Shown here: one piece after another, positions 1-4,697 of the stretch | How the letters are laid out: every line of letters starts with the position of its first letter | How positions within the stretch are numbered: position 1 is the stretch's first letter | Assembly: GCA_965263355.1 (NCBI GenBank) | Contig: CBDHHL010000032.1 | Coordinates: 1,632,001-1,696,000 of the forward strand | DNA from: Leptolyngbyaceae cyanobacterium | GTDB lineage: Bacteria; Cyanobacteriota; Cyanobacteriia; Phormidesmidales; Phormidesmidaceae | Direction: 5' to 3' | DNA: 64,000 nucleotides | Program-made: the position numbers and the translations under genes | Notes under the pieces: model-generated | What the model was told of the DNA's origin: nothing | What the model saw: the letters and a program-made list of their open reading frames with translations, nothing else | Database searches by the model: none

Positions 1-787
1 TCAGAGTTTCAGACTCTTGCTGTAATTGGGCTAAGGTAGCGCTGCCCTGGGCTTTGGTCTGAGTGATTTGTTGCTGGGCAATCGCTAATTCAGCACGACT
101 AGGCTGCGAAGTTGCCTTAGCTTTTTCAAATCGCGCGATCGCAGTTTCCAGAGCCACTTCCTGTTCTCGTAGTTGACTGGCGGCAATCGCCCCTTGCTCG
201 ACCAGTTGGCTATAACGCTCTGTATTTTCTTGAGCAAACTCAATTTCTGCCTGGATCTCACGCAGATCGGCCTGATTGACTAACTGGCGTTCTATCAACT
301 CTTGTTGAGCTAGGGTTAACTCTGCCACTGTTGCTTTTAAATTACCTTGAATTTGTTCAGCAGTAGCGGTTGTGCGTTGCTGGAGTGATTGTAGCTGATT
401 GTCAATTTGAGTTAGCTGCTGTTGAATCTGAATCGCGCTAGTCTGTAATTGCACCGCTTGATTTTGGAGCTGGGTGTCATCCAGATATGCGATCGCATCT
501 CCCACATTTATCCACTCATTTTCCTGCACCATAATTTGACGAATCCGCCCTGAAGCGGTCGCCTCTACCAGGCGCAAATCTCCTTCAGGACGGATCATGA
601 CAGGAGCTTTAATTGTTTCGTTGTAGGTTACAGTCTGGCATAAAAGAAAAACTGTACCTACTGTAATAACGCCCGCTAAACCACTCAACCGTTGCCATAA
701 GCGTAATGGTGGCAACAAGTCTTCTGGTACTATTTCAGGCAAAATAGCCAGACTATCCGATTGATCGTTAGGTATATCAGTTTGCAT
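1..787 (-). CDS. HlyD-family membrane fusion protein (runs off the window start, 3' end not seen)
   Basis: Not in the ORF track. Manual translation from ATG 787 gives MQTDIPNDQSDSLAILPEIVPEDLLPPLRLWQRLSGLAGVITVGTVFLLCQTVTYNETIKAPVMIRPEGDLRLVEATASGRIRQIMVQENEWINVGDAIAYLDD: a TM segment, a lipoyl-like motif, then a Q-rich coiled coil. It lies directly downstream of the ABC exporter. Confidence 0.9.
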   Translation of the reverse strand, partial: MQTDIPNDQSDSLAILPEIVPEDLLPPLRLWQRLSGLAGVITVGTVFLLCQTVTYNETIKAPVMIRPEGDLRLVEATASGRIRQIMVQENEWINVGDAIAYLDDTQLQNQAVQLQTSAIQIQQQLTQIDNQLQSLQQRTTATAEQIQGNLKATVAELTLAQQELIERQLVNQADLREIQAEIEFAQENTERYSQLVEQGAIAASQLREQEVALETAIARFEKAKATSQPSRAELAIAQQQITQTKAQGSATLAQLQQESETL

Positions 788-803
788 CTCTATAAAAGTC
801 TCT

Positions 804-2948
804 TTAGGGAGTTAAGAAGAACCAATGTTCTCCTGGTTGTTTCGATAGTTCAGAGGGTTCACCTTCAAGGGCTAGTTCACCACGGTCAAGCATTACTAAC
901 CAGTCAGCTTGCAAAATTACACGGGGACGATGACTAATCATGATAGTGGTTTTCCCCTTACGATAGAACAACAGTTTATCTAATACACGCATTTCTAAGT
1001 CAGGATCCAGGGCGCTGGTAGACTCATCTAAAATCAGTACAGGTGGGTCTTTAACAATAGCCCGTGCTAGAGCCAAACGCTGAAGCTGTCCTCCAGAGAG
1101 ATTTGCACCAAATTCTCCTAAGATAGTTTGAAACTTTTCTGGCAAATCACCAATAAATTCATCAACCTGAGCAATCTGGCAAGCCTGGATGATTTTTTCA
1201 AAGCTGATGTTAGGATTGCCGACATAGAAGTTTTCTAAAATAGAACGGTTCCAAAAGTGAGCTTGTTGGGGAACAAGTACGACTTGCTGCCGTAAGCAGT
1301 CAAGAGAGAGATCGCCCTGGTTGTAACAACCATAGCGAATGTTGCCAGACTGCAATGTATATAGCCCAGCAATCAGCTTAACGAGCGTACTTTTACCACA
1401 GCCAGAATGACCAATCAGTGCGGTTGCCTGCCCTCCTGGTATAGTTACAGAGAAATCCTTAAGCAGGGCAACACGCCCTATATGGCAAAAGTGTAACTGC
1501 TCGCACACAATATCATCTGTACCGGGCAGAGGTGCAAAGGGTTTATTTTTATTATTCACATATTCATTTGGAGCATTAATCACCTCCGAGAGTCGCTGGG
1601 CTGCTACACGGGTACGGGTAACCTCATCACTTAGCTCTACGAGGGACTCCACAAGCAGAGTAATATACTGATTGAGGGTATTAAATGCTAGCAGTTGGCC
1701 AATTGTAAGTTCTTGTTTTGTAACTAGCCAACCTCCTATCCAGAGGATGATAATTGCTCCCACTGAAGATAGTAACCGAGAAAAAACACTATTTGCGATC
1801 GCCAGCTGATTTCTCTCCAAAGCCAGCCGCCCCAATCGACTAAATCGACGTTGAAACTCATCCCAAAACTGCGGTGCCGCATAAATTGTCTTAAGAGTTA
1901 ACGCTCCTTTAAAGGTTTCTACCAATAACCCCTGATTATCAGCATCAGTGATTAATAGATTTTGCGTACGGACTTTGAGGGCAGGCCACAACGCTACCAT
2001 TGACAGTGTCATGAGCAATGCAGCCCCCAGAGCTACCCCTGTTAAGAGTCGGCTATAAGCCACCATAAGCCCCAATGCAATCAGTGCAACAAACGTCTGG
2101 GTAGGCACCGTAATAATACTTTGGGCAATTAATTGGTTAACCGTTTGAATATCTTGCAGACGACTGATCGTCTCACCACTACGATGGGACTCAAAATAAC
2201 TTAAGGGCAACTGTAATAGCTGTCGCCCAAAGTTTAAAGTGAGCTTAAGTTCCAAACGCTGAGCAAAGTGTGCAATCAAATTTGACTGTACCCAGCTCAT
2301 AAAGCTGCGTAATCCATTTAGAGTCACCACCACAATGGCAATGGTGCCGAGCATACGTAAATCTTGACGGACTAAAATATCATCCGTCAACATCTGAATA
2401 AGCAGTGGCAAAGCTAAGGCCAGTAATCCAATACCTAAATTGATCAACAACGCTTCAGTGAGCAATTGCCGGTAAGGTTTTAATGCTCTTAGAAAGCTAC
2501 CGAACCCCTCTACAGGATCATTTTCATGGGCATAAAACCGGGCATCGTCCAGTTCCAGCAGTAGCATGACTCGGTCAGCCCAGCTTTTTACCAGGTCGTC
2601 TCGGGTTAAACGCCTTACCCCTACTGCCGGATCGGCAATCACATAGCGCTGCCTCTTCTTGCCGTAGAGCACTACCCAGTGATAGCCACGCCAGTGAATA
2701 ATAGCTGGTAGGGGAGCTTCTGCTAAGCGATCAATTAGCTGATCGCTAGCTTGTACAGCTTGGGCTTGAAACCCCAAAATCTCTGCACCGCGTCGTAAGC
2801 CTAGTAATGTAGTGCCTAATTGCCCGGTGCCTACCATTTCACGCATACGGCTAAGGCTAAAATTTCGGCCATAGTACTTAGCTACTGTCGCTAAACAAGC
2901 TGCACCACAATCTTCTTCACTGTGCTGTAAAACAGATGCATATCTCAT
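804..2948 (-). CDS. Peptidase C39-containing ABC exporter (PCAT)
   Basis: N-terminal QHSEEDCGAACLA (catalytic Cys) and IHWRGYHWVV..IADP, then TM domain, Walker A GHSGCGKST, LSGGQ and ILDE. Confidence 0.95.
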   Translation of the reverse strand: MRYASVLQHSEEDCGAACLATVAKYYGRNFSLSRMREMVGTGQLGTTLLGLRRGAEILGFQAQAVQASDQLIDRLAEAPLPAIIHWRGYHWVVLYGKKRQRYVIADPAVGVRRLTRDDLVKSWADRVMLLLELDDARFYAHENDPVEGFGSFLRALKPYRQLLTEALLINLGIGLLALALPLLIQMLTDDILVRQDLRMLGTIAIVVVTLNGLRSFMSWVQSNLIAHFAQRLELKLTLNFGRQLLQLPLSYFESHRSGETISRLQDIQTVNQLIAQSIITVPTQTFVALIALGLMVAYSRLLTGVALGAALLMTLSMVALWPALKVRTQNLLITDADNQGLLVETFKGALTLKTIYAAPQFWDEFQRRFSRLGRLALERNQLAIANSVFSRLLSSVGAIIILWIGGWLVTKQELTIGQLLAFNTLNQYITLLVESLVELSDEVTRTRVAAQRLSEVINAPNEYVNNKNKPFAPLPGTDDIVCEQLHFCHIGRVALLKDFSVTIPGGQATALIGHSGCGKSTLVKLIAGLYTLQSGNIRYGCYNQGDLSLDCLRQQVVLVPQQAHFWNRSILENFYVGNPNISFEKIIQACQIAQVDEFIGDLPEKFQTILGEFGANLSGGQLQRLALARAIVKDPPVLILDESTSALDPDLEMRVLDKLLFYRKGKTTIMISHRPRVILQADWLVMLDRGELALEGEPSELSKQPGEHWFFLTP

Positions 2949-3231
2949 AGATAGGGGTAGACACGGTTTAATTCAGCGTGCCCACCCAAACTCTAAAGCA
3001 ATGTTTCTTGCTCAAAGAAATTAGAGTTGGCTATTTTCAAGTTAAAAAACCGAGTAGAGAATAGTATTTATCCAATGGCTGTCAACAGTAAATTTACGAG
3101 GCGGGATTTACAGACACTTAATAGATTTTCGCCAAATGGCTGATGACAATACGCAAAATGTCTAGTTTTTACTTACTTAGATGACACATACCCGTTTAAT
3201 GTTAATAAAAGATCCCTGAGTTAGCCCTGAA

Positions 3232-3263
3232 CTTTATCTGTAACTTCCGCAATTTCCTGAGTG
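3232..3263 (+). promoter_or_regulatory. Conserved upstream element of GG-peptide gene 1 (paralogous to 3896-3927)
   Basis: ctttatctgtaacttccgcaatttcctgagtg vs ctttacctggaacttacgcaatctcctaggtg: 26/32 identical, 125 and 124 nt upstream of the respective ATGs. Confidence 0.6.
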
Positions 3264-3356
3264 GTATTAACAGGAATATTGGTTTTAATAAATACAAACA
3301 CCCCACAACCTTAAAGTTGTATTAACCATTTGCCGTGTTTTTAATAGGTTAAGAAA

Positions 3357-3521
3357 ATGTTTTCTAAGCGTTCCGACAAAAAGCAATCGTCTCAAAGTAC
3401 ATCTCAGTCCAAAGCAAACTCTTCCACCTTATGGAATAGCTTAAGTGAAAAGCAAGAAGAACAGATCAATGGTGGCTTCTATTATTACTACGATAATCGT
3501 TCTTGCTGTTACTACTATTAA
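3357..3521 (+). CDS. Double-glycine-leader secreted peptide 1 (54 aa, Tyr/Cys-rich core)
   Basis: Manual translation MFSKRSDKKQSSQSTSQSKANSSTLWNSLSEKQEEQINGG/FYYYYDNRSCCYYY*. The leader matches the LWxxLxExxxExxxGG pattern of the three downstream ORFs. Confidence 0.85.
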   Translation: MFSKRSDKKQSSQSTSQSKANSSTLWNSLSEKQEEQINGGFYYYYDNRSCCYYY

Positions 3522-4211: not shown

Positions 4212-4236
4212 TTCGTCTTAAAGGATAATAATAGTT

Positions 4237-4422
4237 ATGTTCCGCACAAAAGATCGACAAGTATCCAGTAACGTTTCACCAGAGTCTTCTCAAAAGACGC
4301 AATCTACACAATTGTGGCAAGCTCTAACAGAAATCGAACAAGAAGTTCCTAAGGGTGGGTTTGGTTTCCCTGGCTTTCCCGGTGGTCCTATGCGTCCTGG
4401 TGATGGAAGAAAAAGAGGATAG
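4237..4422 (+). CDS. Double-glycine-leader secreted peptide 3
   Basis: Leader ...LWQALTEIEQEVPKGG, core FGFPGFPGGPMRPGDGRKRG; clear paralog of peptide 2. Confidence 0.85.
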   Translation: MFRTKDRQVSSNVSPESSQKTQSTQLWQALTEIEQEVPKGGFGFPGFPGGPMRPGDGRKRG

Positions 4423-4470
4423 GTTTTATCAAGTTTAAGGTCGTTTAAGTCTACTTTTTTGGAGTTAGTC

Positions 4471-4653
4471 ATGTTTTTAAACTTGCACTGTCAATCATCA
4501 ACTAAGACAAGAAGTCAGTCTACAGCACAGAATTCATCAACAAATCAGTTATGGACAAAGCTGACAGAGTCTGATCAAGAAATCATCAAGGGAGGGAATG
4601 GACTCGTTTTTTTCTTTCCTGGATTTCCACCATCAAGAGAACGTAATCATTAA
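4471..4653 (+). CDS. Double-glycine-leader secreted peptide 4
   Basis: ATG at 4471 after ggag; leader ...LWTKLTESDQEIIKGG, core NGLVFFFPGFPPSRERNH. Confidence 0.8.
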   Translation: MFLNLHCQSSTKTRSQSTAQNSSTNQLWTKLTESDQEIIKGGNGLVFFFPGFPPSRERNH

Positions 4654-4658
4654 GTTTC

Positions 4659-4697
4659 CAAAAGTAGCTACTATCCCATAGATGGTGGCTACTTTTG
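4659..4697 (+). terminator. Terminator-like hairpin after the peptide cluster
   Basis: caaaagtagctactatc-ccata-gatggtggctacttttg (17-bp stem with G-U pairs). Confidence 0.65.

What the first reader, a model, noticed from the sequence alone, without database searches (positions are those of the whole stretch)
1..4697. Exporter with four double-Gly peptides and no visible modifying enzyme: candidate unmodified peptide secretion system
Seen: HlyD and a C39 PCAT sit divergent from four ORFs sharing an S/Q-rich leader ending LWxxLxExxxExxxGG, with cores FYYYYDNRSCCYYY, FGFPGFPGGPALPGY.., FGFPGFPGGPMRPG.. and NGLVFFFPGFPP... No LanM, YcaO, radical SAM or P450 gene is in the window. Known: PCATs cleave after GG and export, and Synechococcus elongatus uses a PteB/EbfG1-4 module for biofilm matrix. 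Inference: these aromatic/Pro/Gly cores are matrix, adhesion or signalling peptides rather than classical bacteriocins, which fits the adjacent adhesin-like genes.
Basis: partly seen in the sequence, partly recalled or inferred. Interest (0 to 1): 0.8.

Follow-up and report, generated by a model that had tools for sequence, protein, structure and literature searches.

The report
Aromatic mini-peptides exported by marine cyanobacteria
A Leptothoe-like cyanobacterium carries four tiny genes whose products are predicted to be cut and pumped out, likely unmodified, as aromatic 14-22-residue peptides; the exporter type is known, but this peptide family, its own upstream DNA box and its fixed place beside a large surface-protein gene appear undescribed, and a surface-coating role is likely but untested.

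Summary
Observation confirmed: an intact C39 peptidase-ABC exporter (PCAT) and HlyD lie divergent from four double-glycine precursor genes with the stated cores. The layout is known (Wang 2011 group III; EbfG/PteB). The cargo matches neither EbfG nor the CTB family. It belongs to a lineage-restricted family with an LWxxLxxxQxExxKGG leader and short (median 21 aa), aromatic, Gly/Pro-rich, mostly cationic cores; one relative has 21 matches on 14 contigs. Three additions. (1) The neighbouring TPS-domain exoprotein has a clear orthologue in 5 of 172 family genomes, and all 5 have these peptide genes directly upstream; the PCAT is adjacent in only 3. (2) A 36-nt box precedes a subset of these genes. 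(3) The first ten core residues are better conserved than the leader. LanC, YcaO and SPASM enzymes were not found in 5 carrier genomes, nor a PatA/G protease in 4, but sulfotransferases abound, so 'unmodified' is likely, not shown. Best guess: surface/sheath-binding peptides (0.4); antimicrobial 0.3, signal 0.15, modified in trans 0.15. No expression data. New variant of a known kind; interest 0.45.

The parts
2..787 (-). HlyD-type periplasmic adaptor, 3' end cut by the window edge
   Evidence: weak TIGR01843/TIGR02971; counterpart in L001 444 aa with HlyD_3
804..2948 (-). short-type PCAT (C39 peptidase + ABC exporter), catalytic Q8/C14/H90/D106 intact
   Evidence: 85% to Leptothoe sp. PORK10 BA2; own clade of 4 rows, SH-aLRT 100, quick tree
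3230..3265 (+). conserved 36-nt non-coding box, copy 1, ending 92 nt before the ATG of precursor 1; binding factor unknown
3357..3521 (+). precursor 1, 54 aa; predicted core FYYYYDNRSCCYYY (14 aa, 1984.74 Da monoisotopic, net 0), Tyr/Cys type
   Evidence: homologues
3894..3929 (+). conserved box, copy 2, ending 91 nt before the ATG of precursor 2
4020..4211 (+). precursor 2, 63 aa; predicted core FGFPGFPGGPALPGYTNNTGKG (2152.04 Da, net +1)
   Evidence: homologues P0005, P0011
4237..4422 (+). precursor 3, 61 aa; predicted core FGFPGFPGGPMRPGDGRKRG (2089.04 Da, net +3; no Cys/Ser/Thr); Pro at leader position -4
   Evidence: homologues P0003, P0004
4471..4653 (+). precursor 4, 60 aa from the ATG that follows a GGAG element; predicted core NGLVFFFPGFPPSRERNH (2117.06 Da, net +1)
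   Evidence: homologue P0009
4659..4697 (+). strong hairpin after the last precursor, conserved in L001; likely transcription terminator between the peptide genes and the TPS gene
   Evidence: -24.6 kcal/mol, z -5.4; L001 z -4.0; not flagged by the simple scan
4785..7484 (+). TPS-domain (filamentous haemagglutinin-like) exoprotein, 899 aa, pI about 4.1, net about -50; its orthologue sits behind LW-GG peptide genes in every genome where it was found
   Evidence: (PF05860 1e-50); low-confidence all-beta model

Best explanation
The four genes encode double-glycine precursors that are predicted to be cut after Gly-Gly by the intact C39 domain of the neighbouring exporter and secreted through PCAT-HlyD as roughly 2-kDa, likely unmodified peptides, which would coat the cell surface or sheath and help it stick. 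Shown by sequence: the genes, the catalytic and ATPase residues, purifying selection on the core N-terminus, the dedicated upstream box, the constant position in front of one TPS exoprotein orthologue, and no hit for four RiPP enzyme classes in relatives. Inferred from PCAT biochemistry (about 0.9): cleavage and export, with a TolC-like channel encoded elsewhere, and service of scattered paralogues in trans. Inferred (about 0.7): no covalent tailoring other than possible disulfides. Inferred (about 0.45 given the rest): the aromatic, Gly/Pro-rich, mostly cationic cores bind acidic surface polymers, such as the pI-4 TPS beta-helix protein or the polysaccharide sheath, and act as a matrix or adhesive component. 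This would work like EbfG/PteB but by aromatic and charge contacts rather than amyloid; the Tyr/Cys peptide could self-assemble through disulfide-linked dimers.
For: Exporter intact. No RiPP enzyme near hlyD in relatives. LanC 0 of 5 carrier genomes (the same search hits 14 of 101 order genomes), YcaO 0 of 5, SPASM 0 of 5, PatA/G over cut-off 0 of 4 carriers. Core 3 has no Cys/Ser/Thr. TPS orthologue (54-75%) in 5 of 172 family genomes, 5 of 5 with LW-GG genes directly upstream, while the next five TPS paralogues (37-45%) have none in 1.5-kb flanks. Three further TPS paralogues also abut LW-GG genes (G045:C106 and G095:C12, G045:C46, G165:C436); in G045 3 of 14 peptide contigs abut a TPS gene, binomial p about 2e-4. 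Other neighbours include S-layer and collagen-repeat genes. TPS proteins are strongly acidic (net -45 to -68). The only enzyme-free cyanobacterial GG/PCAT system with a tested function in the papers I read is for biofilm, and its mature N-termini are Tyr/Pro-rich (PMC4997328). No hydrophobic immunity-type ORF between the genes. A designed Tyr/Cys heptapeptide forms disulfide-dependent sheets (PMC6382316 passages).
Against: No expression or secretion data. Cores are 14-22 aa against 6-7 kDa for mature EbfG, and 0 of 64 carry the EbfG amyloid motif; such short peptides cannot build a polymer unaided. 11 of 14 peptide contigs in G045 have no adjacent TPS gene, and a conserved hairpin separates peptide and TPS genes, so the link may be inherited synteny in a secretion-gene island. 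Expansion to 21 diverse copies and cationic-aromatic composition also fit antimicrobials. The leader departs from the ComA/LahT consensus at -7 (Gln or Ala instead of Leu) and often at -4, so cleavage by this PCAT is not shown. G095 has 9 precursors but no short-type PCAT was found in it. 8-16 sulfotransferase matches per genome leave tyrosine sulfation open.
Confidence: 0.4

Rival explanations
1. Same export route, but the cores are unmodified class II bacteriocin- or microcin-like cationic-aromatic peptides used against competing bacteria, fouling microbes or grazers.
For: 64 cores: aromatic 18% against 8% in window proteins, D+E 2.4% against 11.6%, 54 net positive, 10-38 aa. 21 hypervariable copies on 14 contigs in G045; 15 cores with an aromatic-C-x-x-T-x-K/R/H motif that looks like a hairpin turn (reading inferred). 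Group III clusters were annotated as bacteriocin clusters (PMC3140520).
Against: The window's own cores are weakly charged (0, +1, +3, +1); no immunity-type ORF; the fixed TPS neighbour and a near-invariant N-terminal decapeptide (89%) are not expected from an arms race; I found no paper showing killing by an enzyme-free cyanobacterial GG peptide.
Confidence: 0.3
2. The cores are diffusible signals (pheromone-like, as with ComC/BlpC; families recalled) whose conserved N-terminus is read by a receptor, and the upstream box is the site of an autoregulatory response regulator.
For: Pheromone-like length; conserved N-terminal decapeptide with a free tail (89% against 22%); a box found essentially only before these genes.
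Against: No histidine kinase or regulator is conserved next to the peptide genes; the box is missing or weak before most family members; many paralogues with unrelated cores.
Confidence: 0.15
3. The precursors are RiPPs tailored in trans by unlinked enzymes, for example tyrosine sulfation as in RaxX (search listing only), halogenation, proline hydroxylation, or head-to-tail cyclisation of the aromatic-Pro-Gly N-terminal octa- to decapeptide with the variable tail as follower.
For: Conserved Pro-ending N-terminal block followed by a variable tail; many sulfotransferases in carriers; a sister LW-leader locus in G062 sits beside a PatA/G protease; a radical SAM gene lies about 1.3 kb from one peptide pair in G045; scattered precursors recall trans-acting LanM systems (PMC3140520).
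Against: LanC, YcaO, SPASM not found in 5 and PatA/G not over cut-off in 4 carrier genomes; no enzyme shared between the loci read; cores share no common modifiable residue. These genomes are drafts and the window's own genome is not held.
Confidence: 0.15

Closest known systems
Group III cyanobacterial bacteriocin gene clusters (Wang, Fewer, Sivonen 2011, PMC3140520)
   Same: Short-type C39-ABC transporter, HlyD, several GG precursors, no LanM and no second peptidase-less ABC transporter.
   Different: Leader has Trp at -15 and an S/Q/K-rich N-terminus; cores are about 2 kDa and cationic, whereas 105 LF-leader cores beside related PCATs have median 61 aa and 86 are net negative; precursors divergent from the exporter and often scattered; fixed TPS neighbour; dedicated box.
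EbfG1-4 / PteB / HlyD of Synechococcus elongatus PCC 7942 (PMC4997328; bioRxiv 2022.07.13.498973)
   Same: Four GG precursors, C39 exporter, HlyD, no tailoring enzyme; aromatic/Pro-rich mature N-termini.
   Different: EbfG mature forms are 6-7 kDa and EbfG1-3 form amyloid through A[FI]NI[GS]; here 14-22 aa, Pro/Gly-rich, motif absent; ebfG lies in line with pteB, here divergent. Direct sequence comparison with EbfG or PteB was not possible.
CTB family bacteriocin (NCBIfam NF038167)
   Same: Neighbours of related PCATs (54-60% identity) with a similar leader frame (L-12, Q-7, E-6).
   Different: NF038167 hits 3 Nostocales/Acaryochloris neighbours above cut-off and none of the window peptides.
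Class II microcins/bacteriocins and ComC/BlpC pheromones exported by PCATs (PMC6363468 passages; rest recalled)
   Same: GG leader, C39 cleavage coupled to export, short unmodified cores.
   Different: No immunity gene or two-component system in the locus; -7 residue is polar.

Membership tests
Wang group III cluster | short-type C39-ABC transporter without N-terminal cNMP domain | tested here: met
Wang group III cluster | HlyD adjacent | tested here: met
Wang group III cluster | GG precursors nearby; no LanM, no extra peptidase-less ABC transporter, no S8 protease | tested here: met
   window side; side beyond hlyD only in relatives. Group definition read from the text; Figure 2 not seen
PCAT/AMS substrate (double-glycine leader) | Gly-Gly/Ala/Ser at -2/-1 and Leu at -12 | tested here: met
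   4 of 4 window leaders
PCAT/AMS substrate (double-glycine leader) | hydrophobic -7 and -4 (ComA/LahT consensus) | tested here: not met
   -7 is Gln 35, Ala 14, Glu 9 of 64; -4 is V/I/M in 38 of 64. Gln at -7 is also usual in leaders beside related cyanobacterial PCATs, so this marks a variant
PCAT/AMS substrate (double-glycine leader) | cleavage and export shown | not testable with these tools
   needs in vitro cleavage or secretome MS
EbfG/PteB system | 6-7 kDa mature proteins with A[FI]NI[GS] amyloid hotspot | tested here: not met
EbfG/PteB system | sequence homology to EbfG or orthology to PteB | not tested
   no EbfG/PteB sequence was available from the tools
EbfG/PteB system | required for biofilm | not testable with these tools
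   needs genetics
CTB family bacteriocin NF038167 | HMM score over 32 bits | tested here: not met
Lanthipeptide / azole / SPASM-rSAM / cyanobactin RiPP | cognate enzyme in locus or genome | tested here: not met
   (draft genomes of relatives; own genome not held)
Class II microcin/bacteriocin | adjacent immunity gene | tested here: not met
   no ATG-started ORF of 30 aa or more with a hydrophobic stretch except one 34-aa frame overlapping gene 2
Class II microcin/bacteriocin | antibacterial activity | not testable with these tools
   needs assay

The most novel reading that the evidence does not exclude
A co-regulated 'peptide glue' system: a marine benthic cyanobacterial lineage uses a microcin-type exporter to release sets of 2-kDa aromatic/cationic peptides (Pro/Gly elastomer-like plus a Tyr/Cys cross-linker) that condense on a dedicated acidic TPS beta-helix protein and the sheath to form a non-amyloid underwater adhesive, switched on through its own 36-nt DNA box.
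Probability: 0.15. Interest if true: 0.75.

Novelty: new variant of a known kind. Interest (0 to 1): 0.45.

Why it matters
Enzyme-free double-glycine clusters are common in cyanobacteria, yet the papers found give a tested function only for EbfG. This family is a tractable second case: cores short enough to synthesise, exact masses predicted, a candidate partner protein and a candidate regulatory box. A positive result would show a functional tie between PCAT cargo and the many unexplained TPS-domain exoproteins (11-24 per genome), or give a new source of marine antimicrobial or adhesive peptides. If the TPS link is mere synteny, it is one more group III cluster with a new cargo family.

Tried and rejected
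Own genome not held. No RNA holder listed among 8 runs: no evidence on expression. Contigs of 4 runs laid on 1-7500: X3 has near-identical pieces over most of the stretch, the other three only 80-95% relatives; nothing on expression or on DNA beyond hlyD. Single-sequence model of the TPS protein is weak (pLDDT 49); Foldseek gave no match at E<=0.001, top rows beta-helices: not used as evidence. ESM Atlas best score 0.81: no lead. Rfam on 2900-4900: 2 chance-level rows, so the box is no known RNA. Sigma-70 scan at chance level. I could not assign the box to a known factor (compared from recall with SigF, ECF, NtcA and LytTR sites). Pfam and NCBIfam gave nothing for the peptides. Paper searches: core motifs 0 papers; searches found no description of this family or of a GG-peptide/TPS link; subscription papers are mostly not covered. 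The 2011 supplements have no hit for four leader/core words, but the precursor table lists no sequence column, so this is weak. bioRxiv supplements (EbfG sequences) were not seen. Rejected: CTB membership, EbfG membership, lanthipeptide, azole, SPASM and cyanobactin routes. The APH-family gene about 4 kb past hlyD and the DUF3641 radical SAM gene beyond the TPS gene in L001 were not seen at matching places in L022 or the G045 loci.
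Full report
OBSERVATION. The locus is as described. A 714-aa PCAT (804-2948, minus) has C39, transmembrane and ATPase domains with Q8, C14, H90, D106 and the ABC motifs intact, and its peptidase domain matches solved PCAT1, ComA and LahT domains. It is followed by an HlyD-type adaptor cut at the window edge. Four ORFs of 54-63 aa face the other way and share LWxxLxExxxExxxGG; that motif occurs 4 times in the window and 0 times in 50 shuffles. Core codons 1-10 of genes 2 and 3 differ by 5 synonymous and 0 non-synonymous changes, so these are genes. 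Pfam and NCBIfam know none of the four peptides, and none of 35 long ORFs scanned is a RiPP enzyme. The next gene, 4785-7484, is a TPS-domain exoprotein; a second TPS gene and an RTX/metalloprotease gene follow.

RELATIVES. No genome is held for the window. The best PCAT matches among 80 loci kept of 164 are Leptothoe sp. PORK10 BA2 (L001, 85%) and Cyanobacteria bacterium J06554_1 (L022, 75%); the other 78 are 54-60%. A quick tree of 50 PCATs puts the window, L001, L022 and a G045 protein in one clade (SH-aLRT 100; the careful tree did not finish). L001 has the same layout with four peptides; beyond hlyD come glutamine synthetase III, EamA, an APH-family gene and iron-uptake genes. L022 has one peptide, and beyond hlyD a second PCAT-HlyD-DUF6232 unit.

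THE FAMILY. A leader profile (A3, 32 rows) matched 12 of 172 genomes of G001's family at E<=0.002: G045 21 matches, G095 9, G001 4, G024 2, and one each in eight others. Rows of A3 came from G001, G002, G045, G095 and G024, so those hits are partly circular. In an even sample of 401 genomes of the phylum only G001 itself and G174 matched. Source-named homologues are Leptothoe sp. PORK10 BA2, Leptothoe kymatousa, Leptolyngbya sp. SIO3F4 and marine-type MAGs, all called hypothetical. I collected 72 cores and dropped 8 (other PCAT clades, or cut by a contig end). The 64 kept, which are not independent, are 10-38 aa (median 21), 18% aromatic, 16% Gly, 10% Pro and 2.4% Asp+Glu, against 8, 8, 4 and 11.6% in window proteins; 54 are net positive, 7 neutral, 3 negative. 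By contrast 105 LF-leader cores beside related PCATs have median 61 aa and 86 are net negative; three of five such neighbours tested are CTB family. Core types by my regular expressions: Pro/Gly-aromatic 19, Tyr/Cys 6, aromatic-C-x-x-T-x-K 15, other 24. Among 7 FxFP-type precursors, identity is 89% over core 1-10, 73% over the last 16 leader residues, 45% over the leader N-terminus and 22% over the tail (these were found by homology, so some bias). The leader keeps Leu-12 and Glu-6 but has Gln or Ala at -7, where ComA and LahT need Leu (PMC6363468 passages).

TRANS-ACTING ENZYMES. In G001, G002, G045, G095 and G104: LanC-like 0 of 5 (its built-in control was silent, but the same search hits 14 of 101 genomes of the order), YcaO 0 of 5 (control 5 of 14), SPASM 0 of 5 (control 9 of 14). 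PatA/G is over cut-off in 0 of 4 carriers and in G062. Against 'unmodified': 8-16 sulfotransferase matches per genome, a radical SAM gene about 1.3 kb from one peptide pair in G045, and untested halogenases, hydroxylases and prolyl oligopeptidases. All are draft genomes.

LINK TO THE TPS GENE. The window's TPS protein found 10 of 172 genomes at E<=1e-120 (5 candidates scored per genome). Five are clear orthologues (54-75%, 880-1380 bits), and all 5 have LW-GG genes directly upstream on the same strand; the other five (37-45%) have none within 1.5 kb. The PCAT is adjacent in 3 of the 5. In G045 the 74% PCAT has no precursor beside it and a 53% PCAT lies about 4 kb from two precursors, so most of its precursors would be exported in trans. 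In G095 no short-type PCAT was found, which counts against the model unless the assembly lacks it. Three other TPS paralogues also abut LW-GG genes. In G045, 3 of 14 peptide contigs abut one of 24 TPS genes (binomial p about 2e-4 assuming 6000 genes), but 11 of 14 do not. The TPS proteins have pI about 4.1 and net -45 to -68. A hairpin conserved in L001 (z -5.4 and -4.0) lies between the last peptide gene and the TPS gene, so they are likely separate transcripts. Shared ancestry in an island of secretion genes remains a live explanation.

UPSTREAM BOX. Aligning the window with L001 showed a 36-nt box twice, 92 and 91 nt before genes 1 and 2. A matrix from these 4 seeds scored the upstream regions of 50 peptide genes: outside the seeds it found sites at 34.7, 34.5, 25.0, 21.4, 12.3 and 7.6, against a 99th percentile of 4.4 and a maximum of 12.3 in 600 random stretches; no C-x-x-T-type gene scored above 2.3. 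A pattern made from these sites gave 8 matches in 5 whole genomes: 6 exact, all before LW genes, and 2 with two mismatches elsewhere that I did not inspect; the reversed control gave 1. It was not found before the peptide gene of G002 or G104. The pattern is circular for the 6 sites; the new result is their near exclusivity. It is no Rfam family and I could not assign a factor.

MECHANISM. Cleavage after Gly-Gly and export through PCAT-HlyD follow from established PCAT biochemistry (about 0.9; not shown here). Lack of tailoring is likely (about 0.7). For function I commit to surface or sheath binding (0.4 overall): the one tested enzyme-free cyanobacterial system, EbfG/PteB, is for biofilm and has Tyr/Pro-rich mature N-termini (PMC4997328, parts 1-2 of 5 read); the genes stay beside an acidic adhesin-like exoprotein; there is no immunity-type gene; and a designed Tyr/Cys heptapeptide forms disulfide-dependent sheets (PMC6382316 passages), a loose analogy for peptide 1. 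It would differ from EbfG, whose amyloid motif (bioRxiv 2022.07.13.498973 passages) is in 0 of 64 cores. Antimicrobial action (0.3) is a close second because of charge, aromaticity and expansion; signalling (0.15) and trans-tailoring (0.15) follow.

COMPARISON AND VERDICT. By the text of Wang 2011 (PMC3140520, parts 1-2 of 5, passages and a supplement search) this is a group III cluster. It works like EbfG/PteB in export, but fails EbfG and CTB membership tests. Anabaena group III-type clusters have been proposed as EbfG counterparts without mutant proof (PMC12267927 passages). A Leptothoe genome survey counts bacteriocin clusters without describing cargo (PMC8225149 passages). PMC11345509 passages gave no promoter motif. 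Searches found no description of this family, its box or a TPS link. Earlier scan notes on similar cyanobacterial loci judged them ordinary in kind; two other look-ups were blank. Verdict: real, new variant of a known kind, interest 0.45.

Noticed in passing
G045 and G095 loci L092, L094, L097, L098, L105, L167-L170: At least 15 LW-leader precursors with cationic cores that share one Cys in an aromatic-C-x-x-T-x-K motif, scattered without enzymes or exporter; they lack the upstream box. Possibly a separate hairpin-peptide family using the same exporter.
   Followed up: partly
L147 (G072), L174 (G015), L175 (G069), L216 (G174): GG leaders beside or near PCAT/AraC-type genes are fused to cores that begin with a LLLPAVQAAREA stretch, which I recall as the pilin-like N-terminal helix of Planctomycete DUF1559 proteins (recall, not tested).
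   Followed up: no
L176 (G062:C12) 172-10513; similar L117 (G024:C46): W/F-type GG precursors between a PCAT with an AraC-like neighbour and a PatA/PatG-family protease (737 bits, over cut-off) plus HlyD: a possible hybrid of PCAT export and cyanobactin-type proteolysis.
   Followed up: partly
L022 13407-15647 and L125 5993-8230: A second PCAT (46%) with HlyD and a DUF6232-type gene lies convergent to the first; in L022 the catalytic His position reads Arg, suggesting an inactive peptidase domain.
   Followed up: partly
L116 (G074:C9) 9084-9872: Two GG precursors with Arg/Cys/aromatic and Pro/Arg-rich cores upstream of a PCAT; they look like cationic antimicrobial peptides.
   Followed up: no
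window 7543-14579: Second acidic TPS-domain gene (minus) and a 1401-aa NF038122 metalloprotease with RTX, C-type lectin and LamG domains; the same TPS plus metalloprotease pairing appears in L132-L136.
   Followed up: no
window 41988-49925 and 54327-58235: 2645-aa multi-LamG protein; 883-aa eCIS-core-domain protein followed by a 409-aa unknown ORF; Tle1-like and Trypco1 genes at 39066-41168.
   Followed up: no
window 14954-20513 and 28206-38749: Iron-related block: ABC permease and ATPase, ExbB/ExbD/TonB, DpsA, Fur, iron-binding protein.
   Followed up: no
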